The position numbers and the translations under genes are program-made. Below the pieces are notes generated by a model. The model made no database searches. It worked only from the letters and a program-made list of their open reading frames with translations, and was not told where the DNA came from. DNA of 64,000 nucleotides, from contig JAHLTZ010000017.1 of the NCBI GenBank assembly GCA_025786725.1, positions 1-64,000 of the forward strand, given 5' to 3'. The stretch comes from Syncephalis fuscata S228 (Eukaryota; Fungi; Zoopagomycota). Positions 11,359 through 60,754 of this stretch are shown here, in pieces; position 1 is the stretch's first letter, and each line of letters starts with the position of its first letter.

Positions 11359-11916
11359 ATCATCAATGGCGTGCACAACTCATGTTATTTTTGTGATAAA
11401 AATAAATTCCATTTGCCTTTACTTGCCTACCATGTCTATGTCCACACATTCACATGACCAAACTTACATACATGCGGTACACAATTCTCTTTGCACATGG
11501 ATAAACTAAAAAGATTTAACAAATTGACACAAGTATCTGGCTCAGTCATTACAACCCGAACTTCCTGCTGTTTTTTGCCTATTGGTTCATCGATTTAAAA
11601 AGGGAACGTCCCAATCACATGTGTCTCATCGCTCTGATAGTATTTTTCTTATAATTGTATGAACAGCCATACAGAACTACTCTCCTTTTTTTGCTATTAT
11701 TCAATCATTTCCGTCGCTCTTTGTTTATTATATCAGTGTTTTTATTCTATATAGCTGGTGCTGGCCTTACCGCTTACATCATCTTTGTGCCATTGATAGT
11801 ATCTGTACAATTGACATTCTGTTTTATCTTTTCTTCGTCTTTAAACTTTAATTCTTCCGCTTGATAATATACAACCAACTCCGCATTAATTTCGCCCTAT
11901 TCTTGAATTTATACAA

Positions 11917-14425: not shown

Positions 14426-14881
14426 GGCTACTGCAATTCACAAGGCAAACAACCTAGCAATATTAGTTACTGTAAATATTAACGCGGTATTCACCAATAA
14501 ATCCCATTAGATAGAATAGCCGACTATATTATAATACAAGCCACTCGTCTTTCGTGACAATGTCAATAGCTATTTGACAATAGCATAGCCAACACACTAT
14601 AGAACGACTTGCCACTAGATAGTTTACCAATGGTAATGAATCGTGTCTTTTCTCATTCCATCTTTCTTTAAAATAGTTCTATTATGTATCTATCCACCAT
14701 CTATTATAATATTCATCATCGTAATTCATCCATCCATCCATCCATCTATAGATCTGTCTACTTGTCTAGCGGCATACTAATAGATTCATGGTCATGGCCG
14801 GCACATCCCGCACCTGTATATCTTTAACGACACCTACCTTTTGATGCGTGTAGATACCGAGCGTGTCCGTCGGATAGAAAA

Positions 14882-14919: not shown

Positions 14920-15306
14920 GTGACAGTAAAAACTGACAACTCACACACACACACACACACACACAATTTTACAACTAATTATTCATTCACACCCATTTTG
15001 TACCATTTAATTCAATCAATCAGTTATTGCACTATTTACTTGTGTATTTACATATCACTTTACCAATAAATATCAATATTTCATCATAGTAACACTAGTA
15101 ACACATATAATTATAATAAACACATTATCATTGCAACAATATCATAGTATAGACACATAAATATAAACACAGTATAGAATAAGAAGGCACAGGTGTTTAC
15201 TAAGGTGTATCGCAACTGGAACACAAAGAGCAAATTCAACAAGTGCAACCTAATAAACGATGTTGATGTAGATGGTTCAGTGATAATGTAATGGCTGTCA
15301 CGCTGC

Positions 15307-16322
15307 TTAGACAACAGTGCCGGAGCAGGAGGCAATACGTGGCCACAAATCGGCGCATTCCTTGGCAACTGGACCGGTAATGGCAGATCCCTTCATTTCA
15401 CCCTTTGGGTTGACAATAACACCGGCGTTGTCTAAAGATTATATAGGTAATAAAATAATCAATCAATTCATTAGTACATTGGTGTTAAAGAAATGACCGT
15501 AGCCATTGGTAGTACATCAAATACTTACCCTCAAAGTAGAGGAACACACCATCGCGTCTGCGCCATGGCTTGCGCTGGCGAATGACCACGGCAGGCATGA
15601 CCTTCTTACGGAGATCTGGCTTACCCTTCTTGACAGTGGCCATATCATATCGCCGGCACCGGCAGCCGGGAGACGATTAAGACGACCCTGGATGGCCTTG
15701 ACCGAAATGACATAGAGATTCTTGGCACCTGAGTTGTCAGCGCAGTTCATGACGGCACCAACCGGCAGACCAAGGGTCATGCGGAATTTGTTACCAGCCG
15801 CTAAATACATCAATGATGATTAACAAATGAGACTATTTACTCGTCTTGAATGCTTACCTCCTCCGCGTCCTATAACATAAAGAATACCAATAATATTGTT
15901 TGTTAGTTAACTGTTCGCGTAAATGTACACTTAATGTCCCATCACACAAAGCCCATTAATAGCACACCAGCTATAATAACCAGGCAGTAGACCGCGATTA
16001 CAAGCAGTTATTTACCAAGCTGTGCTACAACAGTGCAATTAAGGAATCATTGCCATTGCTTAATAAACAATCTACTCATAATCTGTATTTCTATATTATA
16101 GTGTAGGTCAATATGGTCTATACTTGTATTACTATCGCTATTGGTATTAGGCCGCGAGATTCAACGCGTTAAGCTAACCAGTTCAATAGTCTCTGTATTT
16201 TCTTTAGTGTATCTTTTCTATCCAATTTGTTTTTACTCTCTCCATCCATCCATCCATCCATCTATACATCCATCCATCTGTTTCTATACTCTATCGACCA
16301 GATACATACCGCGTTTAGACAT
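15307..16322 (-). CDS. RPL23: 60S ribosomal protein L23 (uL14); 13-nt and 12-nt first exons; apparent 1-nt deletion ~15643
   Basis: MSKRG|RGGA|[28 protein letters not shown]...[33 protein letters not shown]. Confidence 0.97.
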
Positions 16323-16403
16323 GATGAATGGTAGGTGTAAAGTGTGCTAGACGCTACCGTGGTGACTTTTCCTACTATAGCAGAAGGAATCCAAGCCGAA
16401 TGT

Positions 16404-16432
16404 GAGAGGAGGAGCCAGTTGGCATTGGGTGG
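16404..16432 (-). promoter_or_regulatory. Putative ribosomal-protein promoter/TSS motif at RPL23
   Basis: Exact 13-mer GGCTCCTCCTCTC plus CCACCCAA, as at RPL27. Confidence 0.55.
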
Positions 16433-16592
16433 CGATGCACGCCTCTGATGCCACCAACCCGTGTCGATAGTCTAAACATAGACTTGATTCAGACCTATTA
16501 CTATATGTTAAATAAGATAGCTTTTTTTGGCTGTGTTATCGAATAAACATGATGACATTTACTCTTTTCCAAGTGTTTATTTTAAACCAAAT

Positions 16593-17448
16593 CAAAACAT
16601 ATCAATATAAATATAAACAACATTGTTAATATCCTTCTTTTAGATATTCACATTAAAAGCCGTAAAAGCCTATTATTTGGCGGTAATAGCCATCTAAAGC
16701 GATAACTCAGTGTCAATTGCCAGTGCCATTTTTGGGCAATTAAACAAAGAGTACACACATTTATTTGTACAGTATCAGCGTTGTATGCAAAGTACATAAT
16801 CCAATAAAATGTAGTGATAACTAGTGGCCAATACTAAGCAATACGCGTATAAACTATAGTTCTAGCCATGCTAAACAAAAATCAAATGGCTGTATTTGTT
16901 AAGCCATTACGGTATACAGAGCCAAATGCATTAGATATAACGCCGATTGTTGCGTTAGAAAGCACGGATCAATGCGATGCTTTAAGCAGTATAACAGGCA
17001 AGTAAAGAAGTAATGCCAACAATGAGGGACTAAAGGCGAATATACTCAAACATAACAACACTAAGCCAATAAACACTTACTATGCTAATAAAATGTCAAG
17101 GCCAGTGTACAGAGTAAAGACGAGCTGCAAACAAAATAGGCTCAAAGAAGGCAATGCAAAAAGTAATGTAGCGAGTGTTTGCATTTAAGCTAGTAGTCAA
17201 CCAGTTATTAACACTAGCCAAGTAGTCGATGCAGAATATAAACGTGTATACAATCGATAGATGCTGTCAAGTGTAATGCGAAAGAGGACGCGTTGACGTA
17301 GATTGTAAGCAGCTCAGTCAATGAGGGGATTTATAACAATATGATGTCAACACCATTAGTAATTAAGCTAATAAAAAATAAATACTACTATACCAAAGTT
17401 CAGTATACATAGAACATACTATTAGTTAGTAAATAGTAAATGTATAAA
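16593..17448 (+). repeat. Dispersed repeat A, copy 2 (inverted relative to copy 1)
   Basis: Near-identical reverse complement of 4395-5249. Confidence 0.92.
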
Positions 17449-18228
17449 ACAATGGAGCCATTGCACTTTCTCCCACATCCTTGCATTCCTTCTAGCATAG
17501 CCATGCTGTGTATCAGATGGAAACACTTATCAAACATGCAGCCAGTATCCTAGGATAATCTGTTGAACCGGTTGTCGGGTCACGCTAGACGATACAAGTA
17601 AGCCGGTTAGTGTTGACAACTCCTTGGCTCTTTCGCCGTTTATAATCATGCTCACAAACCGTTAAATAAGGCCATGTTTTCTTTTAGTCGATAATATGCC
17701 AAAGGTTTTTTGCATTACCGCGCCCCTTTTTGTCTTACCTGTCTGTGTGTACACTGTTTGATTAATTGCTCTGTCCTCTCGCTCTCTCTCTTATTTCCTC
17801 TCACTATTCTGTTGGTTTGTTCTTTTCTCTCATTCTATCTATATTTACACTTTTAGTATTCCATTGATCCTAGTCCAGTTGTGTGTGTACCTGTGTGTAC
17901 TTGTGTGCGTACCTGTGTGTATGCAGTAACCGCCACCCATCACATCATCTATCACTTATCGTCTCATTATCCATTTATCCACCCACACACACACTGCCAT
18001 TCTTTCTTTCGCTCTTTCTTTCGTCCACTCGTTCACTCTACTCACTCCCATTCTCTTTCGCTTTATTTCTTTCTGTTTGTCGTCAGCTTAGTGTGTTTGC
18101 CTCGATTCGCTACCTTATTTTCGTTTACTTTACTGTGTTGTATCGCACGTCATCCTATTCCAACACAAACACACCGGCTTCTTCTATCATCCCTTTTGCC
18201 GCCAACTCTTGGATACGTTGGCTTGAAT

Positions 18229-18719
18229 GTGAGTAATGTGTTGCTGGTCTGGAACAAGATGCAGTAACAATATAATCTAAATCGAGCTGGTTATATGCAG
18301 TATTGTTTATGTATATGCATACAGCCTTTTCCTTTTATCTTGTCTATATTTTTTAAAAGGTCCGCGTGACCTCAAAGTTATTGAAATACATAGACAGAAT
18401 AGAAGGGAGGGAGACTGTATGCGCATAGACACAAGCAATAGCGCACTCAAGCAGTTAAATTTAGATTATATGGTCGTCACATATAAATCACGAGACCAAT
18501 CGTGACATATGTCGACACATCTTAAGCTAAATTTAACTGCTTGAGTACGTTGTTGCTTGTGTCTATTAGTCAGGATGACAGGTGGCTGTCATGTTATGGC
18601 TAGCTATTTAAAGGCTATACATTGGCTATAGTCTTTGGGATTTAATTCTATTTCGTTGTATGCATATTCGTTTATTTCGTTACTAACGCCTATTTTGTTT
18701 CATTCGCTTTCATTTCCAG
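18229..18719 (+). other. Probable 5'UTR intron of CDC42 containing two long hairpins
   Basis: GTGAGT donor, TACTAAC branch ~18681, TTTCCAG acceptor; inverted repeats at 18316-18423 and 18425-18566. Confidence 0.65.
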
Positions 18720-18790
18720 TCGTCATTTCTTCTCGTTTCATTTCTCATCTAGCTAGTGTATTTCTGTTTTAGAATACACTTTTATTTGGC

Positions 18791-19664
<874 letters not shown>

Positions 19665-20547
19665 GGTGCTTTAAGGTGTGCTCACGCACGTTGGTTGTCT
19701 AACAAGAAATGACGAAGGGATATACATAGAGCAACAAACACGCACATACACAGCACACAAACCATATTGTATACGAGCATAGTTGTAGGCGTTGCCGACG
19801 CGGGATAAGAACGAGAACATATTTGTAAACATGCAAAAAAGCCATTAGTTGTTTTACAAACTGTCAATCTACCATAATTGAACGTGACATGTAGATACTG
19901 TCTTATTGAAGAAGTTTATCTATTTAGTACTACAATCATCCCTTGTCCAGTCAACATGTGATTGTTTTATTTTAGAGCACGAAGAACTGCTCCACTTGCA
20001 TGAATTTCATTAATTTGTTTCCAAAGTTTCTTCGTCTTTTGCGCTATTATTATTATTATTTCAATGTTGAACCGACTAATATGTACACATGCACACATTC
20101 ATTATGGATTGGTTAGCCTTTTCTTTTTCTCTTTCTCCTTCCTCTCTCCTCTCCTCCCCTCTCTTTTGATCTATTACTATTCTTATTGTTTAATCCCTTT
20201 GAGTTGATCCTTATCATTTCTAGTTAAGTAGCCAAAGTTTATCGTGAGCATCCCGTGCATCTTTTTGTCGTCTTATTCTATATACACACACGTATATCCA
20301 CACCACTCACCGATTCATCCACACACACACACACACACACACACCTATTATCATTTACAGCACAATGTATTCCGTCTATGACTATGATATTTTACCACTA
20401 TTAGCATCTTTATTTGCTCCAATGTCCCAGTCTAAATGTTATTGATATTGTTAAATGAGTGGAACAGATAGTTTATTCATTATCATCATAAATACAGTCT
20501 AGTTTAATTGTAATCGTTATTATTACGATCAAGAAGTGATGACGTGA

Positions 20548-23500
20548 CTAAGTATTACTGTTGTTTAGTAATGTTTGTTGAAATCGATTCAAACTAATAA
20601 AATTTATCAGTGTCAATCGATAATTACCAGCCATTGAACTGTACTTACCTTGGTAATACAGCATCTGCTTTTATAATTGCTTCATGCCATTCTTCCATAG
20701 GATCTGAAAGAATAGTAATGGCACCACCAGCACCGATTGTGACCGCTAATTAAATGTATAATTATAATGGCATGTCTATTTACTAATTAAACTTACCTTG
20801 TCCATCACGTATAACTACAGTTCGAATAACTACGTTGAAATCGGCCGATCCATTAATGGATAAGTAGCCTAAACATCCAGAGTAGATACCACGCGGTCGA
20901 TGATCTTCTAACAACTCTAGTAATTGTACGGATCTTAATTTTGGTGCACCAGTCATTGAACCTAATATAGTACATGTAAAGTTGAATAAAGATCAAAACA
21001 ATTAGCATCGTTTATATTAATATTTACTTATTAATGCTTATTGTGCCACTTGCCAGGGGGGAAGCAGCTTTGAAGTGCTTTGACGGCATTTACTTGTTCT
21101 TTAAGCCGACCATCAACGGTAGTTACCATTTGATGTACTGTCTCGTATGTTTCAACCGTCATTAACTGTGGAACACGAACACTATGTGGTGGACAAATAC
21201 GTGCCAAATCATTACGAATTAAATCAACAATCTATAGATCGATCAGTATTAATGAATGGACAAATAGCAATGTAATAATTACTTACCATAAGATTTTCTC
21301 CTCGTTCCTTCACATTAACGGCAAGCGAGCGTGCTAACTCTGCATCTTGTTGTTGAGCACAGGCTGGATCATTGCCATTGTTGTCAAGAGGCAGGCTTTG
21401 TTACAACAGCAAGTGCGTTGTCGTTTAAGTGTTCCTTTAATAGGCCGCATTTGAATAGTGCCGGCTCGTGATACACGTAAAAATCGTTCAGGACTAGCTG
21501 AGGCAACACATAATGAGGGTCCTAGATTTAAATAAGCCGCATATGGTGCCGGATTATCATTGCGTAGTTGTCGATAGAAATCAAATGTAGTCAGTGCATT
21601 GGTATTGCTATTACTTGTTGGTGTACACGGTAGTAATCGTTGTGAAAAGTGCATCGCCAACTGCATCGTCAAACATAGCTCATATGATTCACCATCTCTA
21701 ATAAGCGATTGAGCTCGATCAATCTTTTCTAAATAACTGCTGCATGTATCAGATGGACGAGGTTGAATTGAATGTGGATTAAACATTTTGGCTGCAGTTA
21801 TCAATGATGCTTTTTGAACATGCGATAATGGTGTTGTTTCCTTTGTATGGGCTTCATTTAATTGCTGTGTTGTTTCTTTCATCCATGCATCGCATGCTTT
21901 ACGTGACATACCGACTATAGGTGTATCGATTACTTTAATATCATTTGATAGTGGCGATGGTGGCGGTGTATTGCGTACTAGTGCTACTAACCAAGTAGTC
22001 CCTGTCGTGTAGTCGATAGATACAAATCGATCAAGAAATATAAATGCCGCATCTGGCATCTTTGAATGCGTATCCATGTTAGATAAAGTGTTGGTAGTGA
22101 TAGATGCCATTTGATGCTGTTCATGTTCATTCTCATCTCTTAATGGATGTGATGTATAGCCTGGCAATGATTCCTGCTTCATTTCATAGCCAAAATAACC
22201 AACTAGACCTGTACAGAAATCAAATTCTGGTATTGGCTCTAATGGTTTTGTTGTTGTTGTATCTGTTTGAACCAATTCTGTTGGTACATGTTTAAATTGT
22301 TGCATAAATCTTGATGTCCAATCCCAGAATGTATCGCTAGGTGCCAATGTCTTCTTTTGCTCAATATAATTATTACTGCTATTAAGTGATGCTGATGGTT
22401 GTTGCAGTTTAACCGTAGCTGATAAACAATATTGCTGTAATTTAACTTGTTTGCTGTCCAAGTAATATTCTACTTTAAATCTAATGGTATGATTATTAGT
22501 AATTTAATATAAATATATAATAACTTACCCTGTCGTTGATTGACACGACCCCATAAGACTGAATTGGCTTTGTCGGTCATTTGCCTAATTAATATTGATC
22601 ATTTCAAATTATTTAATTAATATTATTATAACTATTAACTAATCGATTGACTTACTCGTGCACTATCAAGCCATACACTTGCATCATCATGCCGATATAA
22701 TGTATGGAAAACAAGATCTGGCTTTGTAACATAAGGTAGTTTTTGAGCATAAATAGTTAGTGGTGTAGCATGCAGCTGTTGTGCATTGCTATTCATCGTT
22801 AATGTCATCGGTATTGATGCGGGTACAGTAGTGATGCAAAGGCTTTTAATAGTATCTGGCAGATTTGGACGACGTGATAGTAGCCATTCTATTAATCAAC
22901 AAGTTAGTAATCATCATCTAAATAAACCATCTATTTAGTATAGACTGTACCGTTTGATGCCAACGAGCAGTAATTTCCAAAAAGTTGTGCATTAATAATT
23001 GACCATGTTCTGTACAGACCGACTAGATAAATTAATAGTTATACACGTGTTATCTATATAGTTGTACATATTTAAATATATAAATACCTCAGGATGAAAT
23101 TGTACGCCATAGAATGGCTTATCTCTATGCTGTAATGCCATGATAGTACGTCCATTTGAAGATGAGTTATATGTTTTACCATTCTTGTTCTCCATAGTAT
23201 ACGCTAATACTTTAATACTAGAAGGTAAATCTAATAGTAGCAGTAATAAATAATAAATAAATAATTAATTAATATAATCAAATGGTAGTACCAATTCATA
23301 CCTGTTTCTGACACCATCAATGAATGATATCGCACCACCGAAAAAGGGGAGGAAATATGATCAAATAGCGATAAGGCCGATTGATCAGTAGATGAGATCA
23401 AGTGAACTGCATTGACTTGACCATGAACAGGTGTAGATGCATGTACAATCTAATATTAATAACATATTCATTGTATAAGTTATAACAATTAGATCAATTA

Positions 23501-24037
23501 ATCTAATGAATTACCTTACCACCGGCCATATAAGCAATGGCTTGGTGTCCTAGGCAAACACCAAGTATTGGTATATTGGTATATCGTAATAGATCAGATA
23601 CTACACCAACATCCTTTATTATTATAACATACAAATATATAATATAATATAGTATCAAATAAATATCAAATAAATGATTCATATTTATCGTATAATTACC
23701 GTAGATTGTTCAGGTGTACCAGGGCCTGGCGATAAAATAATACCATCAAAGTGCTCAAGTACATTATCGCGTAAATATTCCCTATTATATATAAATATAT
23801 ATTAGTATATATATATCCATTATTTGCTCCTATTAGTTGTATTTCTACTTACCAGGTCAACTGGTCATTCTGAATAACTACTACTTGAACATATTTCTCC
23901 GGTAGTAGTTGTAACAAGTTGAGTGTGTACGAGTCATAGTTATCAACCACCAAGATACGTAAACACATTTGTACAGCCCGTGACGTGACACTCACAGGCA
24001 GTGGTGTATCCACCAAGAGCATACGTGGTTCCGGCAT
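20548..24037 (-). CDS. ABZ1: Aminodeoxychorismate (PABA) synthase, GATase + chorismate-binding domains, multi-exon
   Basis: [67 protein letters not shown]. Confidence 0.93.
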
Positions 24038-24215
24038 AGTTGTTGTTATTGTTGTTGTTATTGACTAAGAAAGACAAGACTGTAGAACAGCAAGAATAGG
24101 TGTGTGACTAGAGAAAGAGAGAAAAGTTAATGTTGTTTTTTTTCTTCTTTCTTTCTCTCACGCACTCTAACTGTTCTTCTACTTTACTACTATTATTATC
24201 CTTACTACTATTGCT

Positions 24216-24872
24216 ATGGTACCTGATACTGCAATGAATACGACGGCGATGATGGCCAGTGATGTATCATCGCTATCTCGTTCATCGCTGTTGAAGAAGC
24301 GGGCGCGATCATCGTTCGAATTAGATACATTATCTAAACAAACTATCTGGAATACTCGGGCTATAAACAAACAACCAGCTATTAATGATCTAACTAGTCA
24401 TTACAATAACTGCTCAACTATTACAGCAAATATACGGTTATTAAAACCTTTACCGCCACTATCACCTACACTATTGCCAAAAACAACATGGTTAACTCTA
24501 TCGGATGATGATATTATGGATAGTGATGACGGTAGTAATAGTTTATTATTGCCTGATACATGGGAGATGGAAAGTGATTCTGGATTCTCTTCTTCTACTT
24601 CTTCTTCTTCTTCCTCGGTATCCGCGTTGAAATCAGTTAATAAGTGTTATTTATCAAACATTAGTAAGAAACAAAGACACGCTTCTGTTACTGTCAATCA
24701 AAGTAACAAATATTCTGAGTGTATTTCATCTAAACAACAACAGCGGTTATATTCTACAAGAATGGAAATGACACCACCACAATCACCAAATCAGCCATTC
24801 TTTTTTACAGAAGCTGCTTATCGTCGATTTAGTGTACGGCCTATTACACCTGCACTCAAGGAGTTATTTTAA
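24216..24872 (+). CDS. Intronless orphan, Ser-rich, probably disordered protein
   Basis: 218-aa open frame divergent from ABZ1; no recognisable domain. Confidence 0.6.
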   Translation: MVPDTAMNTTAMMASDVSSLSRSSLLKKRARSSFELDTLSKQTIWNTRAINKQPAINDLTSHYNNCSTITANIRLLKPLPPLSPTLLPKTTWLTLSDDDIMDSDDGSNSLLLPDTWEMESDSGFSSSTSSSSSSVSALKSVNKCYLSNISKKQRHASVTVNQSNKYSECISSKQQQRLYSTRMEMTPPQSPNQPFFFTEAAYRRFSVRPITPALKELF

Positions 24873-24917
24873 TTTGAGCCCCATACTTTTTTGGAAATAA
24901 AAGATATGGGACTCAAA
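24873..24917. other. Stem-loop immediately after the orphan's stop codon
   Basis: tttgagccccatacttt..aaagatatgggactcaaa imperfect inverted repeat. Confidence 0.6.
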
Positions 24918-25092
24918 GTCCACTTCAACCGAATTTAATGTAAGTATTATCAAATATTAACAAGCTTTATTATAGATTATTCAAGACTAGTGTAATGTTA
25001 GTAATATGTTTATTGTTTTATTCCAAGTAAAATAGTAAAATATGTTATCCTATTATTTTATTTAGTTTATTAATTAAATATAATATTTTCTT

Positions 25093-25383
25093 TTACAGAT
25101 ATAAGCATATTGCAGTTAGTTACATTTAATACTGCTACATTGACACTGTTCATTTTAATAATAATATCAGTAATTTATTGTGTTATTTTCATTACGTTAA
25201 TATTAAACAATTCATTAATAGTTTAATATGATTTGATGTTAAATGACTATATTTAATAACATTTAATTTATTGAACATAATAATGGATGGTGAATGACAT
25301 CAAAGTCTAAACTACTCATCGTAGATTTATGATCCAATATGCATATACTATATTCACTTATATCATAGAATGATGTATAATAG
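25093..25383 (+). repeat. Dispersed repeat B, copy 2
   Basis: Matches 5299-5570, then jumps to match ~5888-5907 (catagaatgatgtata). Confidence 0.88.
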
Positions 25384-25529
25384 TATAGACATCCATGGTT
25401 GATGATATAGGCGAATGTTAGTATTAAATGTTATTATATTGTTAAATAAACATTGTTATTAAATTAATTAATATTTATATAGAATCATAGATTGAATCAA
25501 TCTATATATGCTGATAGGCATACATTTAT

Positions 25530-26890
25530 TTAATGATAATGATGGGTTTCTTCAATATCACGACCACGAAGCGTTGGTGGTTCGTTGCCTTTACTGTAGA
25601 TTTCCGTGAATAGTTCAGCGTCATCGGGTTCAGCTCCATTTTTGGCTTGTTCTACAGCCTCATCAACTTCAGTGCGGATTTCACGTTCCATTTGCTTAAG
25701 CATAGCTTCATCGGCTACATTGTTATCGAGCAAGCGTTGTTTAAGGCCGGTGATTGGATCGTTTGCACTGCGCATATGTTGGATCTCTTCACGTGTACGG
25801 TAAGTAGTACCTGGATCGGACATCGAGTGACCACCATAGCGGTACGTGACCATTTCAAGCACCATTGGGCCGTGGCCTTCAATGGCATGTTGGCGTGCAA
25901 ATGCACAAGCTTGACGAACGGCTAATATATCCATACCGTTGATCTTGATGCCTGGAATATAGCCGGCACGACGGAAATACTCGGTCGAGGCAGAACTACG
26001 CTTGGCTGATGTACCCATACCGTACATATTGTTTTCGCATACAAATACAACAGGTAAATCCCAAAGTTTGGCCATATTATATGCTTCAAATACTTGTCCT
26101 TGATTGGATGCACCATCACCATAGAGTGCGAATGTGCATGCCTTTTGGTCGAGATATTTTTGCGTAAAAGCATGACCAGCACCGACGGGTACTTGGGCAC
26201 CTACAATACCGTTACCGCCATAGAAATTTCTTTCAAACATATGCATAGAGCCGCCCTTTCCCTTTGACACGCCAAGTTTATTGCCTAGCAATTCGGCGAT
26301 AATCGACTTGACAGATGCACCGCGGACATAAGTATAGCCGTGACAACGATAGGCTGTGATGATAACGTCCTCTTTAGTGATGCCGCGTTCCATACCAACT
26401 GGTACAGCTTCCTATGATATATGCACACACATAGAGCAATATTAAATATTTGTTTTAAATAAAACTATCGTTTTAACTCACCTGACCGGTGCACAAGTGA
26501 CAGAAGCCACGAATAAGCTTTGCCTTGTAAAGACCGTCGGCTGCCATCTCCATACGACGAACCACAACCATTTCACGATACATATCAAGCAATTCCTTTT
26601 TTGAAATGGTTACGGCACGGCTGGGCTCATCGCATTCGTAGACTTCAAACGCTAAATTTGGCAAGTCAATTGTAATCATATCTTGACCATTGACGTCCAC
26701 TTCTGTAGCAAAAGAACGACGCGCCATAGATTGTGCGTTCAATGGCTAAAAATAGTCGTAGAAAAATAAGCGTTTATATTAATGCTATTGATTCAAGATT
26801 TATTGGCAATATTAACGCTACCTTGATCATACCGCGTAATGCGGTGGCTGGGCGACTAGCGGCCGTACGAAATAATGCCTGACGGAACAT
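25530..26890 (-). CDS. PDA1: Pyruvate dehydrogenase E1 alpha, mitochondrial
   Basis: IRGFCHL, GKGGSMH, YGDGASNQGQ, TYRYGGHSMSDPG; N-terminal presequence MFRQALFRTAASR. Confidence 0.97.
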
Positions 26891-27348
26891 GATTGTAAAG
26901 CGCGACAATAACCAAAATAGCGCAGTGTATGCGGAGTAGTATCAGGTAGATTCAGCAAAAGTGTTCCACCTATTTGCACGTACACGTAACCAGCCGGTTA
27001 CTGTTGTTTCTTAACAAAAGAAGAAGAGGAAGCAAGGAAAGGAAGAAAGAGCTGGAAAGCGATTCCTGTATTGAAAGAAAGAAAAAAATGCCCACTAATC
27101 AATTCATCATATATATATGTGTGTGTGTGTGGAGATGAGGCCATGCTTGATTTTATTTTGGGGACATCATGTAAATGTGTAAGACTATACAAGTGCAAGT
27201 CAATTAAAATGTGATTAGAGTCGAATAGATTTTTACTAATGATAAGAGTGATCTGTAATAGAAAGTAAGAGTGGGAAATAGGTTTATCATTATCATAGTA
27301 ATAAAATGTACTATAGTGCAATTGTATATTTTAACGCATTGTTTGTTT

Positions 27349-28617
27349 TTACTCCGATTGTCCAGCATTGGCCACATCATCGGAGTCAACGCGGAATTGT
27401 TCCATCCAAGCGCGTACGCGTTCATAAACCATAAATGTGATAGCTTGACCTGGTGCCACACGTAATATACGAGGTGTAAGACCCTTGTAGAAGGCAGTGT
27501 AGCCCTGTAATAATGGCAAGTTGTTACATTAGTATTGATAGTGTATTGGTAATGTAGCTGCAAATTACCTCGTTTTTAATAATACCGCTGCACACATTAA
27601 CAAATCGTGTCCAGCCAGATTCTCCTGGTACATATGATGCTCGTTGGATACGTGTTTTAATCGTATCGATTGGCGCATTTGACATAGGACCTATGTTGAA
27701 TTGTTAGTTATTAAGGATAGCTATACCATACAATCATTTACCCATAGCACCGCTAAGACCGCCAATAAGCAAATGTTGATAGCTGGGTAGTTCAGTACGA
27801 TCTGGTTGCCAGGCAAGCAATTTTTTCTTCATTTCTTGGTATGCTGTAAAGTTGACAGCTTGATTTGTGGCTAATTATATCATTCAATAGCTAATTCGTT
27901 AATAAATACTATAGCTACACGTTTACAGTTAAATTACCTTGTCGAAGTGCTGTCAGTGTAACACCTTTGTAAAGAGCGCGAACACCTTCCTCTTTAACAA
28001 TGGTATAGGCGGCGTGTCCTGCATTGCGGTACTTTGGCACATCCAACGGGTCCATCATAGAGTGACGCTGAGCTTGCAAACGGATTTTAATGACATCCAT
28101 TGGCGTTACTACAAGTACAGCCTCAGTTATACCAGCACCTAGACCAGCAAAGAACGTTGCGGTCGTTGATACTTTGCCCGTTTCTTTATTCTTCAAGTAG
28201 CCTTTATACGCCTCGAAACTCGAAAACCGAATAGCCATCTTTGGTACGATGCCAGATACAACGGCACCAAGCCCCTTGTACAAAGCAAGAGGGCCTTCAC
28301 GTTTAACAATATCCACACCAACACCGACAAAGCTACGCTTGGCTGGTGGCTATTTAACGTCATCGTCATTTAATAATAGCTATTAGTCTGCAATTATCAA
28401 TAAGTCTTTGCTATTTGCTTACCTTTTTTAATTGAGCACGACCTGGTGCACCGGCACGCAGTTGCATTCGCACTTTAATCGTATCTAATGGATGGCAGGC
28501 CATCGCCTCCATAAAACCGGCCGTACCACCGGCTACCAAGTGAACAGAGAGTGACTTTTTCTGAGTAGCAGACCGACTGGCCTCTGCTGGCTTTGCTGCT
28601 TCATTTTTCACGGTCAT
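27349..28617 (-). CDS. SFC1: Mitochondrial succinate-fumarate carrier
   Basis: CHPLDTIKVRMQL, LYKGLGAVVSGIVPKMAIRF, QAQRHSMMDPLDVPKYRNA, TPRILRVAPGQA. Confidence 0.93.
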
Positions 28618-30727
28618 GGTGAATGTATAAGTAGTAGCTTATTAATTATAGAAATAAAGCGTAACGTATGCTTAAACCGCAAGTTAAGCCTGAAATAATA
28701 CGTAGTAATACGAATGAGCGAGATGACGCGTGCACGAATCTTAAAGAATTAATAGTTCCAAAGAAACAGGCGTTAGCGATAAACGTAGACGTGTACAAAT
28801 AATAGACAAACAGATACAGGCGGTCAACGAATAATGTACGCGTGCCCACACACTCGGCGGTAGCAGTGGCAAGCGGGCGGGGAAGTGTAGCAAAGAAAAA
28901 GTTCCAATAGAAAGCGGAAAGCGGAAAGAGAAACAAATAGCGCGATAGGTTTTAAATAGGGATCAAGCACTCTTCGATGTTTCTATGTGTGTGTACCCTG
29001 GCAGTGAAGCGTGGGATACTGCTGCTATGGACGGCAAGAATAAAAAGAAGACTACGCGTATCGCCGTTTAAACCGGCATTGGCAAATCCGACTCATCGCT
29101 TTGCCAACGCGTGACATTCACGTGAAGTATTGCCTGTGCTATTCCGGACGATTTCGGATCTCGTATTCGGCATTGCCACTATAAATAATAGGCGTGCTAT
29201 GAAAATAACTGATTCTATCCTATAAAGATGCTAATCTGATTTGTCTTAATCAATGGTTACTATGTGTGGTAGATCTCTGTTTTATTGTGTGCTTGATCAG
29301 TAGTTTGGATCTTAACAGAATGATGTTTAATTCTAAAAAGAGATGTAACGGAGAGTATCTAATTTCCGTAAAGATATGCTTTGTATGACTATGAAAATCT
29401 GTTTGTGTTTGCATTCAATAGCGTATTTATTATATATTTATTTAGATTATTAATAATTAGAGGAGTTTTAAAATGCCACTAATAATTAATGCCATTATTC
29501 ATATATTGCTAAATATTTTCTGTCATAAAAATATTGTAATCAATTAATAGCGGCCATCATAAAGGTACTACTGCATTACAACATTTTGAAGATTTTTTAT
29601 TTATAATAGTTTGTTTATTCATAGTCTCTATAGGTGTATATTATCATTTAAACACTTGATTCGTATTAAATATTATAATTAATCGTATTGGAATACAACT
29701 ATGCACACATTATTCAATTTAGCACTATTGCCAATAGTTTGCTTATTTAGTTATCTTATTTGCTTCTGTTATTGTTGTTACACTAATATCCAGTTATTTT
29801 AACAATTTAATCTAATTTGTGGTCTGAATGGCTACATTTAATAATATTTGTGCAACTGATTCACATATTCTTTCTATTGAACATGGAACTGTGCGATGAA
29901 TGGTATTAATAATCAAGCCATCTTCATAAACACATTATAATTATTGTTATCTGACGCATATTTATTTTATTTATACTTATTCTATCACATGTCAGTTTAT
30001 TATATGTTGAAAACACTCTATTCAAAACTGTTGAATTTTATTACTAGCACTATTTATTATACATTCGACTATTTGCTTAGTTAAATTGAAATAATTATAT
30101 GAATCATTCAAAGCACTATAAAGTGCTACGTTTTATAATATGGCTAGAATTATTTTAAACGCCAAAAGCTCTAATAAAAATAAAGTAAAACTCAACTGTG
30201 GATGTGACTGGTGCCATGTGCGATGTTTGTTAGAACAAGTGACAATTACTGGTTTGATATTAAAGCAATACATGTGCCCTAGTTGGACAATAACTTGGTC
30301 AGCTTTTACTAGCACAATTGTGCTAAAATAATCGAAGCAATAGCCATAGAATTGCGATACTCTATCGAATAGCGGTTGTGTAACAATCAGCTTGAATGTA
30401 AAGCATGCGCCCAATATATTTGAAACTTCTTTGTTCTCATATGCATCCATGAAGAAAGCATGGAGTTTAGCATGCGGTGCAAACACACAAACACGGTTTA
30501 CTGCTCTTTTCAACAGAGTAGCCTTGAATGTCACATGAGTGCAAATAACATTTATTAGTGTCGTGCTGAATGGTGTATTCACCCAATCTGTCACTTATTT
30601 TATTACTTTGTATTTGTCTCCAACACTCGTGTTATTTGTAATACTGCTTACTAGGGCCAGCAGAGCTGCTCTACTTTGTCATAATCAATCCGTATTACCA
30701 ATCGCCCACCTTTACTAATCAATCAAT

Positions 30728-32400
30728 ATGCGTTTTCTCAACGTTCCACATGAGCCCACCTCACTGGTGATATCACGTTTCCTATTTTTAGCTATAGGAG
30801 TCATTGGGCTATCTTTAATCGCAAGCCTAGAAATAGCACATCTAACCGAACAAAAAGATGTTTATCAAGTGGAATATAATGTTCAGCCACTTGCTCTACC
30901 AACTATATTATTTCGATCAATAGCAGCGCCTAATGTAGTTTATTTTTACAATTTTGGCGTTATGACTACATCAGGATTCAACGAATACGGCATGTTTAAA
31001 ATTGATGATGCAATCAAATCTGTCGAATGGAACCAGAATGTAACCGACTCAAGCTATCAAACTCGGGATTGGAAGCGAGTATCGCGTAGGAAAATGGTAT
31101 CCCCATCACTAAACAACTCAGAACTTGATATGAAGATTATAAATCCTAATCTTAATCATGTTTTTGTTCCCAAATTTCAAAGCAATTCAGAAAAGACTAG
31201 CATAGGCAACAAACTTATTACTAGACTTCATATGAGAATCAAAGCAACTATCCCAAATGATGAAATATCTGCCACTATGAAAATTCCTAATTTTCAAGTC
31301 GATATGTTTGTTATCGATAATCCTGATTTACTTGATCCAAAAAAACATACCAAGCCATTTGATTTGGCTATACTTAATTCCAAAGCTCGGTTTACTATAA
31401 AAAGTGGAACCAATGTTATGTTTGATTTTATCGAAAGCCACATGGAAAAAGGTAATTACACCAAAAAAATGTACGATTTCGGAGTTTATGAGCAACCGGG
31501 GCAAGATTCAACGGCAATAGAGTTCACCATTGCTCCTCGTAACGAACCATCTGCCGATAACGATAATTTTATGGTAAAGAAGGAAATTGCCCGACGCCCC
31601 GTCAGTGTATTCCAGGCAATTGGTGCAATTGGTGGTGGTATATCAATGTTTATGGCTGTGTTTGCTATACTATTTGGCCAACGTCGTCTCCGCCCATGGG
31701 GAATCATCCAGCGGTATCTTATGCGCAGCAAGATACTTAGTCTTTTGCCACAGTTTATGGTCAGCATTAAATCCTCTTATCGTCCTAAATTTGAGCGAGA
31801 ACCGGATAACGGATTGGCACACTTACATGTGTTAAATCCATATAAATTAGGTACAAAAATTAGTTCAATGCCTGTTTATAATACACATCGATCAAAATCA
31901 CCAAATAACGATACATCTGAAAATATACCGACTATAACAATTAATTGTGATAATGAGAATCCACGCACTGCTGATACTCGTACTAGCGAAATCAGTGAAC
32001 TTAAAGCAATGATGAATACGCAAATGGAGCAATTCACAATAATGTCAAATCGACTTGCAACACTTGAAAGTAATCCGAGTGCAAATAGCAGTATTATTAT
32101 GCCAACTCAGCCTGCAACATTTGAAAGTATCGATAAAATAGCAGTATTATTATGCCAACTCAACCTGCAACATTTGAAGGAAATTTAAGTGTGAATAGTA
32201 ATAGTATGATGCCAAATTTATTAATGCCGTGTAATATGAATTCATCGAATACTTCGACTGCCCAGAGTAGTAAAATATCTTTATCTACATCTGAGGCGTT
32301 GCCGATTGAAACTCGCGTAGCAAGTCTTGAGGCTTTTCAATATCGACTAGGAACATTTTATTTAGCATCTGATTTATTTAAAGACACTTCGTTTGAGTAA
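30728..32400 (+). CDS. Intronless 2-TM membrane protein, family member 1 (frameshift ~32130 inside a tandem repeat)
   Basis: HEP-TM1, ~250-aa ectodomain, IGG-TM2-LFGQRRLRPWGIIQR, C-terminal LEAF..R...FYLASDLF shared with the genes at 57.6 and 60.8 kb. Confidence 0.8.
32065..32213 (+). repeat. ~57-nt coding tandem repeat (ESNPSANSSIIMPTQPATF), ~2.6 units
   Basis: aatagcagtattattatgccaactcaRcctgcaacatttgaa occurs twice, plus a degenerate third unit. Confidence 0.85.
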
Positions 32401-36879: not shown

Positions 36880-37092
36880 GTAAGCATATGGATGCATAGA
36901 TCCATCCATCCATCCATCCATCGCTCTATCCATTGAGTCAAATACTGTATATGCCACTCTATCCACTTAATAAAGTTATCGAATGGATGGAAGGATAGAG
37001 GGATGGATGGATGATGGATGGGAACGCATATAAACACCGTGAAACCACAGGGGAACTGACCCGTCTTGTCTTCATCTACTCATCTACTTTAG
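36880..37092 (+). other. Probable 5'UTR intron of eIF1 with a (CCAT)n/(ATGG)n hairpin
   Basis: GTAAGC donor, ACTGAC branch, TTTAG acceptor 36 nt before the ATG. Confidence 0.6.
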
Positions 37093-37128
37093 CATTCCAC
37101 TACTGTATCGTAGTTGTTCAACTTGTTC

Positions 37129-38020
37129 ATGTCCGAAAATACTATTCTCAATCTTGGAGCGCATGGTAAGTCGTGGCCCTGCCTCATCTAGTGGGATTCT
37201 GAACATAGATGACTTATGCATTCTTACTGGTATAGATCCATTCAACGACGACGTTGGTGAAGGTGGTGAATTCGCGCGAAAGATCCGTATCCTTTTCTAG
37301 TCTATGTCATGCGCTATAGATGACTGTATGGCATAATACCGCGTATAGAGACAGAGAGACAGAGAGATAGAGCATATATGCAAGGCATGATGAATCTATT
37401 TATTTTTATTGACTGCGGTCCTTTAGACCATCGTTTTGATCGGTCGTTCCGTGAAGATTTTCTTTTTTGTCATAGTTACACTGACCGTCTTGCTATGCTT
37501 TTTAGTCTCTCTCTCTCTCTTTCTCTATTACTTGCGGGTTATTATTGTCAGCCATTCATCTATATGGCGGATACATTATATACATTATATGTATTTATAT
37601 CTTAACCAATGCAACTGCTGTACTACAGATATTCGAGTAAAACAACGCAATGGCCGCAAGTGTGTGACCAGTATTGAAGGCTTAGAACACGTCATCAAAG
37701 ATGTTATTATTGCGGAAAACCGCCTAAAGAACAAAAGCAAAGAAGCCAAAGAGGCCAAGGAAGGCAAAGAAGCCAAGGAAGGCAAAGAAGATCTCGATGG
37801 CGATGAGCTTTTCGACAGATGGCTTAAGAAGATCAAGAAAGATTTGATGCAAGAACTAAGCGTGGGCGGTGGCAAGGTCAATGCCGATAAGGATGGCGCA
37901 CCTGTCATTCAGTTCCAGGGCAACAAGGCCCGCGAAACTATGGAGTTTTTGACTGGCCTCAAGTTCCGTTATACAAAGGCCAAGATTGACCGAACTCAAA
38001 TTGAAATTCACGACTTTTAA
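37129..38020 (+). CDS. SUI1: Translation initiation factor eIF1/SUI1, divergent, 159 aa (exons 37129-37165, 37236-37286, 37629-38020)
   Basis: MSENTILNLGAH|DPFNDD...KI|HIRVKQRNGRKCVTSIEGL...VIQFQGNKAR...IEIHDF; exon lengths sum to 480 nt. Confidence 0.88.
37287..37628 (+). other. U12-type GT-AG intron in eIF1
   Basis: 5' splice site GTATCCTTTT; branch-like ATCTTAAC at 37599-37606; no polypyrimidine tract; splicing restores the conserved IHIR. Confidence 0.78.
37380..37493 (+). ncRNA. Intronic box C/D snoRNA, snR63/SNORD46-like (LSU helix 69, yeast Am2256)
   Basis: Box C ATGATGA 37387-93, C' GTGAAGA 37451-57, box D CTGA 37481-84, terminal stem GCAAG/CTTGC; guide GTCATAGTTAC complementary to rRNA GUAACUAUGAC; the D+5 rule hits the second A of UAAC. 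Confidence 0.88.
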
Positions 38021-56947: not shown

Positions 56948-57567
56948 TGTGTTGAATGATAGAATGCAGGTTGGACAGAAATGTGTAAATAGTTTTAGTC
57001 CAAAGGCCAGTCCATTTGTTGTTTGACATACAATGTAAATTGATTAGGCCTTTGGTTTAGGTATTTAGCGACACCATTGATTTAGTGAGTACAATTTAGT
57101 GATTTGCCAAATAATATTGATGCTTTTTAAATAGATGTACAAACTAGTTTAATTGTGTGGAAACGGCCTATATGTTAATAGAATAAAGTGCTTATTACGC
57201 ATTTGACTATCCATAACAATTTACACATTAAGTACATAAATATACAACTAGAACATGCTACAATAGTCGAATGAAATACTGTATCAAACACTTATGTACA
57301 ATTTTTGCAACAAATATAGACAATGGTACAAATGACGTTCATCATGGCCAAATTTGTACATAGCTAGTGTATGAGCGGCTTTGTTCTAATTGTGTCGGCC
57401 ATTTGCATATTGTGTAACAACATGTTTGGCAATAATATAGGCCATAATAAACAATATTAAATAGCAAGCATGTGATGCATTCTTTTTCCTCTAGCATTCC
57501 TTTGCACTTTCAATTTATCTTTATTGCATTTCAGCATATCTATATTTCAGCATATTTATATTTCAAC
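56948..57567 (+). repeat. Duplicated upstream region of 2-TM member 2
   Basis: Matches 60155-60754; about 9 differences in the distal ~390 bp, more diverged close to the ATG. Confidence 0.9.
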
Positions 57568-59103
57568 ATGTTTAAAATGACAAATTTTCAGCATGAGCCG
57601 AAACGGCTAATTGTGACACGGTTTATTATAATGTTTCTTGTAACAAGCGGCCTTGCAATATATCTTATATTCCAGTTAATCAAATTTTTTGATGGTGGAG
57701 ATATATATCGCTTATATGAAAATCGAGCACCCGTAAAAGTACCTGCATTGCTATTTATTGGAGCTTCTGGAGCACCATTGCCAAAACCATTAGTATCCGC
57801 AAATTCGATTGCAGAAAATGCAACTAAAGTATCAGACAATGATATTTCTTTCAACGTCAAAGAGCTTATGTGGGGAGAAGATATTAAGAAGTCACCATTA
57901 AAATATTTTATGTCCTTAACAGAAGTATCCAATGCTACTAAGGTATTTGGATTTTATCCTGATGAAAACTGGGCCATTACACCATATGGTAGACAAAAAG
58001 CCAACACTCCATCATCCGTTATAACTAGTTTTTCTATGCTTAATATTGCTTTTTTAAAGGCCATCACCAATGATACAATGTCAAACACTGAAAGCACTAT
58101 GATGCACGTTATAGATGAATTACATTATGACCAATTGAAAAATGCACGACAAAACAGACGGCCATTAGACGTTGGATTGCTAGGTAATGTACGCGGTACT
58201 CCTCTACATTGGGGTACTAAGACGACTATCAGCATTCTTCAATCTTCAAAAAAAACAGGCTCTAAACAAACAGCAAAATATAACATTCGTATTGATTCAA
58301 CAGAAGCAATATTACCATACAGAATTATAGTTGATTTAAAGGTTATGAATGAGCCTTATGACGACTGGAACTTTATTATTGATGTAAATGAAAACGTTAA
58401 ACTATATACGTTTCTTGGTGTAATCAGCCCAGTTGGTGGATTATTATCCATTGCACTATATGTATTTGCATTTTTATTTGGTCACAAGCGACTACGTCCA
58501 TGGGGAATTGTGCAACGATTTATGATGCGAAATCGAATTCTTAGTAAAGTTCCTCGTACTGTGGCAGTAATCGGGTCAGCATGGAGTACACCTAAACAAA
58601 ATCCTTTGGGACATGATTCCGCTATTGAACACGAGGAGAGTGCAATTCAACATGATTCTAGTATTCATACAGTGCCAACATTAGTTAGCCAGCAAAGAAG
58701 TGTTAATACAACAATACAATTCGCTCAAGAACCAACAATTTATCGAAACCGCAACATTGGATCACAAAACTCGGTTTTGGGTGATTTTCAGCAGCTTAGA
58801 CGGGAAATTGAGCAGATAAAAACTGCAATGATGCTAGGAAACAATCCGTCTGCACAAGAACAAAGCAATACACATCTTGCACCTCCTAATAATAATGGTG
58901 CACAGGCACGTGATGGTAGCTCAATAGCCGACAACAGGGCATCAAACTACAATATTTTTACCGACGTACGAATCAATGATTTGGAGGCCTTTCGTCAGCG
59001 CGTTGAGACATTCTACTTGGCATCCGACTTGTTTGAGGTGCAAGGAGGACCGAAAGCAAACAAGCGCAGCACCATGCAAATACTTACCAATCTCAATCTT
59101 TAA
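57568..59103 (+). CDS. Intronless 2-TM membrane protein, family member 2
   Basis: MFKMTNFQHEPKRLIV start aligns with the paralog ATG; LFGHKRLRPWGIVQR; FYLASDLFEVQ. Confidence 0.85.
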   Translation: MFKMTNFQHEPKRLIVTRFIIMFLVTSGLAIYLIFQLIKFFDGGDIYRLYENRAPVKVPALLFIGASGAPLPKPLVSANSIAENATKVSDNDISFNVKELMWGEDIKKSPLKYFMSLTEVSNATKVFGFYPDENWAITPYGRQKANTPSSVITSFSMLNIAFLKAITNDTMSNTESTMMHVIDELHYDQLKNARQNRRPLDVGLLGNVRGTPLHWGTKTTISILQSSKKTGSKQTAKYNIRIDSTEAILPYRIIVDLKVMNEPYDDWNFIIDVNENVKLYTFLGVISPVGGLLSIALYVFAFLFGHKRLRPWGIVQRFMMRNRILSKVPRTVAVIGSAWSTPKQNPLGHDSAIEHEESAIQHDSSIHTVPTLVSQQRSVNTTIQFAQEPTIYRNRNIGSQNSVLGDFQQLRREIEQIKTAMMLGNNPSAQEQSNTHLAPPNNNGAQARDGSSIADNRASNYNIFTDVRINDLEAFRQRVETFYLASDLFEVQGGPKANKRSTMQILTNLNL

Positions 59104-60154: not shown

Positions 60155-60754
60155 TGTGTTGAATGATAGGATGCAGGTTGGACAGAAATGTGTAAATAGT
60201 TTTAGTCCAAAGGCCAGTTTATTTGTTGTTTGACATACAATGTAAATTGATTAGGCCTTTGGTTTAGGTATTTAGCGACACCATTGATTTAGTGAGTACA
60301 GTTTAGTGATTTGCCAAATAATATTGATGCTTTTAAATAGATGTACAAACTAGTTTAATTGTGTGGAAACGGCCTATATGTTAATAGAATAAAGTGCTTA
60401 TTACGCATTTGACTATCCATAACAATTTACACATTAAGTACATAAATATACAACTAGAACATGCTACAATAGTCGAATGAAATACTGTATCAAATACTTA
60501 TGTACAAAGTTTGCAACAAATATAGACAATGGTGCAAATGACGTTTAATATTACCAACGTTGTGCATAGCTGCTGCATGAGCGACTTTGCTCTGGTTGTG
60601 TATCGGCCATTTGCATATTGTGTAACAAGTTGCCTGGTAAAAATACTAATTTCATTGAACTATATTAAATAACAAGCATGAATACATCCTTTCTTCTCTA
60701 GCATTACTTTGCATCTTTCATCTTTATTGCATTTCATCATATCTATATTTTAAC
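60155..60754 (+). repeat. Duplicated upstream region of 2-TM member 3
   Basis: Direct repeat of 56948-57567. Confidence 0.9.

What the first reader, a model, noticed from the sequence alone, without database searches (positions are those of the whole stretch)
37129..38020. eIF1 with natural substitutions at start-codon-fidelity residues plus a charged-repeat insertion
Seen, aligned by eye to yeast Sui1: RNGRK is kept, but QLQGDQR->QFQGNKA (D83N, Q84K, R85A), terminal HGF->HDF (G107D) and LKKDFACNG->LMQELSVGG (K59M, K60Q, N65G). About 35 extra residues, including (KEA/KEG)x6, are inserted before helix 1. Established: D83G and Q84P are Sui- alleles, G107R is mof2-1, and K60 contacts 18S rRNA. 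The frame is intact and codon use is RP-like (AAG, GCC, TTC), arguing against a pseudogene. Inference: either the lineage has altered start-site stringency, or this is a specialised paralog that tunes initiation.
Basis: partly seen in the sequence, partly recalled or inferred. Interest (0 to 1): 0.75.

Follow-up and report, generated by a model that had tools for sequence, protein, structure and literature searches.

The report
Remodelled eIF1 in parasitic fungus Syncephalis
A spliced, expressed gene for the start-codon proofreading factor eIF1 in the fungal parasite Syncephalis has lost several near-invariant ribosome-contact residues and gained a 41-residue insert, yet it is likely the working eIF1 with a rebalanced grip on the ribosome rather than a sloppy or spare copy.

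Summary
Observation confirmed. The window holds a three-exon, 159-aa eIF1 gene; intron 2 is spliced in an RNA run of this organism. K59M, K60Q, N65G, D83N, Q84K, R85A and G107D are real and rare: 124 other eIF1-like proteins keep D83 in 122, R85 in 123, K/R59 in 122. They are shared by 4 of 4 other Syncephalis sequences; Thamnocephalis shares part of them, without the insert. The insert is about 41 aa, not 35: a conserved predicted helix plus a variable (KEx)n linker, on an intact predicted SUI1 fold. The 'sloppy initiation' reading gets no support: Q84-to-basic is the accuracy-raising direction in yeast (PMC3895268), 20 of 22 neighbouring starts have a -3 purine, upstream AUGs are depleted and near-cognates are not, and this gene keeps eIF1's poor-context AUG. 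Best reading: the main eIF1 with a compensated 40S interface (0.6). A second, canonical copy could not be tested (no genome held). The scan noted a different eIF1 insert (loop 2) in another fungus. New variant of a known kind; interest 0.5.

The parts
37129..37165 (+). eIF1 exon 1 (coding part); start codon at 37129
   Evidence: N-terminus matches S. plumigaleata protein P0001; not covered by RNA contigs
37120..37132 (+). Poor Kozak context of the start codon (-3 T, +4 T), the autoregulatory mark of eIF1 genes; no ATG in the 100 bases upstream
   Evidence: 0 of 22 neighbouring starts have -3 T, 20 of 22 have a purine; eIF1 ranks third lowest of 23 by context score; PMC3326321 and PMC7049704 passages for the convention
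37166..37235 (+). Intron 1 (70 nt, GT-AG), phase 1 inside the Asp of the DPF motif
   Evidence: splice not shown directly by RNA
37236..37286 (+). Exon 2 (DPF motif and acidic N-terminal tail)
   Evidence: covered at high contig depth in run X1
37287..37628 (+). Intron 2 (342 nt, GT-AG), phase 1 in the His before strand 1
   Evidence: joint 37286 to 37629 in an X1 contig; Thamnocephalis-type models also break at this place
37629..38020 (+). Exon 3: SUI1 domain with inserts, stop codon
37646..37660 (+). Loop 1 RNGRK (P-site/rRNA contact), unchanged
37685..37738 (+). Insert part 1: predicted extra helix, 12 of 18 columns invariant in four Syncephalis sequences
   Evidence: (helix 48-68 in the P0001 model)
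37739..37792 (+). Insert part 2: (KEA/KEG/KED) x6 linker, 9-bp tandem unit; about 2 to 6 units across species; low-confidence coil in the model
37793..37822 (+). Insert part 3: predicted N-terminal extension of helix 1
   Evidence: 6 of 9 columns invariant
37823..37858 (+). Helix 1: K59M (37847-37849), K60Q (37850-37852), L55K; K56 kept here but Ser in the 4 other Syncephalis sequences
37859..37873 (+). SVGGG in place of ACNGN (N65G; shared with Thamnocephalis)
37910..37930 (+). QFQGNKA: D83N, Q84K, R85A at the start of helix 2
37961..37984 (+). Short basic insert (about 6 aa extra) between helix 2 and the last strand
38009..38017 (+). C-terminal HDF (G107D), on the eIF2-beta contact surface in yeast
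   Evidence: PMC11472065 passage
36900..37034 (.). Upstream region: (ATCC)n and (ATGG)n runs facing each other and a TATAAA at 37029-37034
   Evidence: role untested

Best explanation
This intact, spliced gene is likely the main eIF1 of a Syncephalis species, and it likely still guards start-codon choice through a rebalanced rather than weakened grip on the 40S subunit. Shown: SUI1 domain, unchanged RNGRK loop, RNA splicing, fixation of all changes across the genus, a partial earlier stage in Thamnocephalis, poor-context AUG. Predicted: the SUI1 fold is kept and the insert forms an extra helix, a floppy KEx linker and a longer helix 1, at the loop that in yeast faces the eIF3b RRM and eIF3c tail rather than the 40S contact. 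Inferred: loss of the helix-1 lysines (K59, K60, and K56 in other species) is offset by added positive or removed negative charge at the neighbouring interface (Q84K, D83N, L55K), possibly by the basic insert helix and by co-changes in eIF3, eIF2-beta or 18S rRNA; any shortfall in affinity would also be buffered by the poor-context AUG, which raises eIF1 synthesis when stringency falls.
For: RNA joint over intron 2; X1 is RNA of this organism by many GT-AG joints. Contig depth on eIF1 exons 15,000-31,000, on RPL27/RPL23 20,000-31,000, on PDA1/CDC42 about 2,000 (the tool warns that contig depth cannot rank genes, so this is weak). All flagged residues in 4 of 4 other Syncephalis sequences; Thamnocephalis (2 sequences) has D83K, R85T, SVGG/NVGG and keeps K59, K60, G107: a stepwise change that follows the genera. 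Model of P0001: 86 of 86 residues of yeast eIF1 (3j80_j) aligned at 1.8 A, Z 10.9 (mean pLDDT 69). Start contexts: -3 purine in 12 of 13 clear and 20 of 22 hand-picked starts against 0.51 background (p 8e-5), eIF1 alone has -3 T. ATG in 60 nt upstream of 22 starts: 2 against 13.5 in shuffles (0 of 1000 as low); CTG+GTG+TTG+ACG 69 against 59, no depletion. Yeast: Q84H lowers Kd about threefold and offsets K60A; authors propose interface covariation at constant affinity; E48/L51 lie away from the 40S interface (PMC3895268 passages). eIF1 residues 49-56 face eIF3b RRM and eIF3c tail (PMC8599844 passages). Sui- eIF1 raises its own level through the poor context (PMC3895268, PMC7075259 passages). 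Precedent for a 159-aa, insert-bearing eIF1 in Cryptococcus (PMC7049704 passage).
Against: No genome is held, so a second canonical eIF1 is not excluded. K60A alone costs about 12-fold in yeast and Q84H returns only about threefold; here K59 is lost too, D61 stays acidic (Glu), and helix 1 net charge is +2 (+1 in other species) against +4 to +7 in Thamnocephalis and two animal-type rows, though one plant-type row also has +2, so full compensation is not shown. Wallace et al. call K56, K59, D83, Q84 highly conserved in fungi. The starts were chosen by hand as first plausible ATG (22 genes, one window), which favours ATG depletion; dinucleotide shuffles push TG into CTG/GTG/TTG. Context of eIF1 is third lowest, not lowest, of 23. 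The single-sequence model of the window's own protein failed (pLDDT 44). In trees the Zoopagales rows group with giant-virus eIF1s, not with the one fungal-type row.
Confidence: 0.6

Rival explanations
1. It is the main eIF1, but the lineage really runs at a different start-codon stringency (looser through weak helix-1 binding, or shifted through the insert).
For: Loss of K59 and K60 (and K56 in 4 of 4 other Syncephalis sequences), D83 and R85, all near-invariant elsewhere; yeast K56E, K60A/E are Sui-. Very high RNA depth would fit feedback over-expression of a weak eIF1 (weak).
Against: Normal -3 purine preference, upstream-ATG avoidance and no near-cognate depletion in 22 neighbouring genes (small, hand-picked set). 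Q84K and D83N point toward tighter binding.
Confidence: 0.2
2. It is a lineage-specific paralog beside a canonical eIF1, tuning initiation or serving another step.
For: Only about 37-40% identity to canonical eIF1s and many interface changes are easier to tolerate with a backup copy. The second copy could not be looked for.
Against: Keeps the poor-context AUG and DPF tail of main eIF1 genes; depth near ribosomal-protein genes (weak); (GATG)n runs of three or more occur in the window only at RPL27, RPL23 and this gene; one such protein per species (these searches would not have shown a canonical copy).
Confidence: 0.13
3. The Zoopagales gene descends from, or was exchanged with, a giant-virus eIF1 clade.
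For: Careful tree: Syncephalis + Thamnocephalis + two giant-virus-type clades at 96/89; those viral rows share GK[DE] or GNQA at 83-85; L005 lies on a giant-virus contig.
Against: With columns 83-85 dropped, support falls to 84/76 and 80/31; AU test does not reject grouping with a fungal-type eIF1 (p 0.09); all branches are long; 0 of 7 of those viral rows have the DPF tail that the fungal gene has; two spliceosomal introns, the first at a position I recall as ancestral (recalled, untested).
Confidence: 0.06
4. It is a decaying or neutral copy.
For: Variable low-complexity repeat.
Against: Intact frame, spliced RNA, 50 of 65 columns after the insert invariant across four Syncephalis sequences, the one listed substitution in a soil-derived relative is synonymous.
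Confidence: 0.01

Closest known systems
Yeast eIF1/Sui1 (PDB 2ogh, 3j80, 6gsm; Pfam PF01253)
   Same: SUI1 fold in the model (86 of 86 residues, 1.8 A), RNGRK loop, DPF tail, H106/F108, poor-context AUG
   Different: K59M, K60Q, N65G, D83N, Q84K, R85A, G107D, L55K; about 41 extra residues before helix 1 and about 6 after helix 2
Cryptococcus eIF1 (159 aa; Wallace et al. 2020, PMC7049704, passages)
   Same: A fungal eIF1 enlarged by lineage-specific inserts, poor-context AUG
   Different: Its inserts lie in the N-terminal region, loop 2 (tRNA-facing) and a solvent loop, and the paper reports K56, K59, D83, Q84 as conserved in fungi; here the large insert lies before helix 1 and those residues are changed; no strong-context downstream out-of-frame AUG here (next ATG has -3 C)
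Yeast Ssu- allele Q84H and natural Lys/His-84 eIF1s such as Tetrahymena (PMC3895268, passages)
   Same: Basic residue at 84 next to rRNA, shown in yeast to tighten binding and offset K60 loss
   Different: Here combined in nature with loss of both K59 and K60, D83N, R85A and G107D
Thamnocephalis sphaerospora SUI1 (RKP10547.1, partial)
   Same: Nearest relative outside the genus (53% over the core); changed 83-85 motif, SVGG, IDRSQIEVH tail, break at intron 2
   Different: Keeps K59, K60 and G107; no insert
Giant-virus eIF1 homologues (IMG/VR loci L032, L063, L065, L073; metagenome L002, L003, L005)
   Same: D83K or D83N with R85 lost, apparently reached independently
   Different: No DPF tail, no insert, keep helix-1 basic residues

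Membership tests
eIF1/SUI1 family (PF01253) | SUI1 domain above Pfam gathering score | tested here: met
   40.7 bits against 25.5
eIF1/SUI1 family (PF01253) | SUI1 alpha/beta fold | tested here: met
   Model of the S. plumigaleata orthologue aligns with all 86 residues of 3j80_j, rmsd 1.8, Z 10.9; prediction, mean pLDDT 69; the window's own single-sequence model failed
eukaryotic eIF1 (not DENR, eIF2D or aIF1) | Stand-alone domain with RNGRK loop 1 and DPF N-terminal tail; best matches are eIF1 | tested here: met
   9 of 9 PDB sequence hits are eIF1; Foldseek ranks 1-13 are eIF1 complexes, eIF2D at E 4e-3; no other domain in 159 aa
eukaryotic eIF1 (not DENR, eIF2D or aIF1) | Own AUG in poor context (autoregulation) | tested here: met
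   -3 T, +4 T; 0 of 22 neighbours have -3 T; start position rests on homology, not RNA
canonical Sui1-type 40S interface | Basic K59/K60 on helix 1 | tested here: not met
   M and Q in 5 of 5 Syncephalis sequences; K/R59 in 122 of 124 others. A four-residue shifted register would put Lys at 59; the model's helix end, HMMER and Thamnocephalis favour the register used
canonical Sui1-type 40S interface | QGDQR at 81-85 and G107 | tested here: not met
   QGNKA and D107
main (essential) eIF1 of the organism | Only eIF1 gene in the genome | not testable with these tools
   No genome held; homologue searches do not list canonical copies by organism; no SUI1 counts in supplements of PMC6784888
main (essential) eIF1 of the organism | Binds 40S, restricts near-cognate starts, complements sui1 | not testable with these tools
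   Needs experiment
giant-virus eIF1 clade | Supported common clade independent of the trait columns | tested here: inconclusive
   96/89 with columns 83-85, 84/76 and 80/31 without; AU p 0.09 for the fungal grouping

The most novel reading that the evidence does not exclude
Syncephalis has only this eIF1, and its new conserved helix replaces the helix-1 lysine contact and the eIF3c/eIF3b tether with a different way of holding eIF1 on the scanning ribosome, giving the lineage its own start-codon rules.
Probability: 0.2. Interest if true: 0.78.

Novelty: new variant of a known kind. Interest (0 to 1): 0.5.

Why it matters
eIF1 is among the most conserved initiation factors, and K59, K60, D83, Q84 and G107 are the positions through which yeast genetics defined start-codon fidelity. 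A genus that has replaced all of them, with a sister genus showing a half-way stage, is a natural test of the proposal (PMC3895268) that interface residues covary at constant 40S affinity. The yeast sui1 system makes the test direct: whole gene, insert-less gene, and single reversions on UUG/AUG reporters. If the extra helix is the compensating element it would be a new structural route to eIF1 retention on the scanning ribosome. Two library searches found no paper on it (Syncephalis + eIF1, 0 papers; Zoopag + eIF1, 1 listing that looks unrelated, not read); subscription journals are mostly not covered.

Tried and rejected
Own genome: none held, so the second-copy question stayed open; the scan's own notes on this genome gave nothing. 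The look-up of sequencing runs listed no holder on record as RNA; X1 was then shown to carry spliced joints. Exon 1 and intron 1 had no cover in X1 contigs, which proves nothing either way. X2 laid nothing; X3 and X4 gave only short pieces. Metagenome scan: 13 loci, none Syncephalis; the six with RNGRK matches were intronless AT-rich eIF1-like genes, the other seven were not examined further (most matched the repeat). GTDB scan for intron-bearing eukaryotic eIF1 loci: 4 loci, none useful for intron positions. ESM Atlas: only SUI1 clusters, scores under 0.9. Representative search: 8 hits, nothing between Syncephalis and Thamnocephalis. Single-sequence fold of the window protein: pLDDT 44, not used. 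The 135-row tree did not finish its careful search (quick tree only). Supplements of PMC6784888 (11 files searched): no SUI1 or PF01253 entry. PMC4705826: no passage on the alleles. No paper text on G107 acidic substitutions was found. No complex prediction was run: no Syncephalis eIF3c, eIF3b or eIF2-beta sequence was in hand. dN/dS was not computed: no DNA of relatives. Pseudogene and mis-called-intron readings of the insert were rejected: a 246-nt X1 contig covers 37629-37874 without a gap.

Full report
What is there. The window is fungal, intron-rich DNA. At 37129-38020 a three-exon gene (37129-37165, 37236-37286, 37629-38020; GT-AG introns) gives a 159-aa protein without stops that scores above the Pfam SUI1 cut-off. 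All 9 PDB sequence hits are eIF1. The closest proteins are from Syncephalis plumigaleata (78%) and S. pseudoplumigaleata (76%), plus two unnamed members of one cluster, so the window is a Syncephalis species (Zoopagales). A contig of run X1 joins 37286 to 37629, and another covers 37629-37874 without a gap, so intron 2 is spliced and the insert is in the RNA. X1 shows many GT-AG joints in other genes of the window, so it is RNA of this organism. Contig depth on eIF1 exons (15,000-31,000) is near that of RPL27 and RPL23 (20,000-31,000) and above PDA1 and CDC42 (about 2,000); the tool warns that contig depth cannot rank genes, so I treat this as weak. Exon 1 has no RNA cover; it rests on splice signals and on the S. 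plumigaleata N-terminus.

Against yeast eIF1 RNGRK is kept, while K59M, K60Q, N65G, D83N, Q84K, R85A and G107D are present. Among 124 other SUI1 proteins gathered (two rows dropped: a fused duplicate and a non-SUI1 hit), D83 is kept in 122, R85 in 123, K/R59 in 122 and G107 in 117; Q84 is His, Lys or Arg in 14 and K60 is K/R in 96. That set was picked by likeness to the query and holds few fungi; for fungi, PMC7049704 (passage) calls K56, K59, D83 and Q84 highly conserved. All flagged residues are fixed in 4 of 4 other Syncephalis sequences, which also have K56S. Thamnocephalis sphaerospora and one unnamed relative have D83K, R85T and SVGG/NVGG but keep K59, K60 and G107 and have no insert: the change looks stepwise along the lineage.

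The insert is about 41 residues here, 35 in S. plumigaleata and 29 in S. pseudoplumigaleata. It has three parts: a segment with 12 of 18 columns invariant, a KEx repeat of about 2 to 6 units (9-bp period), and a segment with 6 of 9 columns invariant. An AlphaFold2 model of the S. plumigaleata protein (28-row alignment, mean pLDDT 69) makes these an extra helix, a low-confidence coil and a longer helix 1; the rest aligns with all 86 residues of yeast eIF1 in 3j80 at 1.8 A (Foldseek agrees). The repeat is thus probably a length-tolerant linker, and the conserved helix is the more interesting part. In yeast the insertion site (residues 48-51) lies away from the 40S interface (PMC3895268 passage), and residues 49-56 face the eIF3b RRM and the eIF3c N-terminal tail (PMC8599844 passages). 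Residues 104-108 contact eIF2-beta (PMC11472065 passage), so G107D changes that surface.

Does it imply loose initiation? In yeast Q84H tightens 40S binding about threefold, raises accuracy and partly rescues K60A and K60E; the authors note natural Lys or His at 84 and propose that interface residues covary at constant affinity (PMC3895268: outline, first part of the introduction and passages). Q84K and D83N both add net positive charge beside rRNA, and L55K adds a lysine one turn up helix 1 (inference). G107D is opposite in charge to G107R; I found no text on acidic substitutions there. Against full compensation: K60A costs about 12-fold, K59 is lost too, and helix 1 net charge is +1 to +2. 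In the window, 12 of 13 clear and 20 of 22 hand-picked starts have a -3 purine (background 0.51, p 8e-5), whereas eIF1 alone has -3 T, with +4 T, and ranks third lowest of 23 by context score. Poor context is the autoregulatory mark of eIF1 in most eukaryotes (PMC3326321 passage), and it lets weak eIF1 raise its own level. Upstream ATGs are depleted (2 against 13.5, 0 of 1000 shuffles as low) and CTG/GTG/TTG/ACG are not (69 against 59). These are small, hand-curated tests, but none points to relaxed start rules.

Is it a paralog? No genome is held and the protein searches cannot list canonical copies by organism, so this is untested. Indirect signs favour the main copy: poor-context AUG, DPF tail, high depth, and (GATG)n runs that occur in 64 kb only at RPL27, RPL23 and this gene (seen after the fact). 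Codon use is intermediate (GC3 0.52; RPL27 0.79; six other exons 0.26-0.45).

An unexpected rival. Trees group the Zoopagales rows with two giant-virus-type eIF1 clades (SH-aLRT 94 in a quick 135-row tree; 96/89 in a careful 46-row tree). Those viral rows have GK[DE] or GNQA at 83-85. Dropping these three columns lowers support to 84/76 and 80/31, an AU test does not reject grouping with a fungal-type eIF1 (p 0.09), and 0 of 7 of those viral rows have the DPF tail. Convergence plus long-branch attraction is the likelier cause; only one fungal-type row (identified by recall of the fungal pattern) was available. That D83N/R85A arises separately in viral eIF1s suggests these changes are structurally tolerated.

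Comparison and verdict. It belongs to the eIF1/SUI1 family but fails the canonical interface test, so it is a variant, not a typical member. Lineage-specific inserts in a fungal eIF1 are known from Cryptococcus (PMC7049704 passage), and the scan noted a loop-2 insert in another fungus (e1-7568025, not tested here); the combination here, a pre-helix-1 insert with loss of K59, K60, D83, R85 and G107 fixed across a genus, was not found in two library searches, and the scan holds no look-alike. Most likely it is the main eIF1 with a compensated interface (0.6); changed stringency 0.2; specialised paralog 0.13; viral origin 0.06; neutral copy 0.01. New variant of a known kind, interest 0.5.

Noticed in passing
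window 14727-14746, 16243-16278, 36903-36922, 37002-37013: Runs of three or more (GATG)/(CATC) units occur in the 64-kb window only in the first introns of RPL27 and RPL23 and upstream of eIF1 (there in both orientations); possibly a shared element of highly expressed translation genes.
   Followed up: partly
window 14427-14838 (- strand): The RPL27 5'-leader intron uses at least four alternative 3' splice sites in run X1 (14427, 14430, 14451, 14469).
   Followed up: no
window 18228-18791 (+): CDC42 has a 491-nt 5'-leader intron (joint 18228 to 18720) that removes upstream ATGs; the coding start is at 18791.
   Followed up: no
window 52479 (+) and 11917 (+): The presumed starts of the NEO1-like flippase and one 7TM-like gene have -3 C and score as low as eIF1; starts are hand-picked and may be wrong.
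   Followed up: no
window 30719-32185, 57451-59100, 60659-62227 (+); 9859-10773, 11890-12663 (+): Two small families of single-exon paralogous membrane-protein ORFs (three sharing an HEP motif near the start; two 7TM-like), not identified.
   Followed up: no
L002, L003, L005, L032, L063, L065, L073: Giant-virus-type eIF1 homologues with D83K or D83N and loss of R85, i.e. the same motif eroded as in Zoopagales.
   Followed up: partly
L027, L028, L029: Short contigs in three bacterial genome records encode eukaryote-type eIF1 (53-57% to the query); likely contamination.
   Followed up: no
P0002, P0005, P0006: Public models of the S. pseudoplumigaleata and Thamnocephalis-type proteins begin in or at intron 2 and lack the true N-terminal exons.
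   Followed up: no
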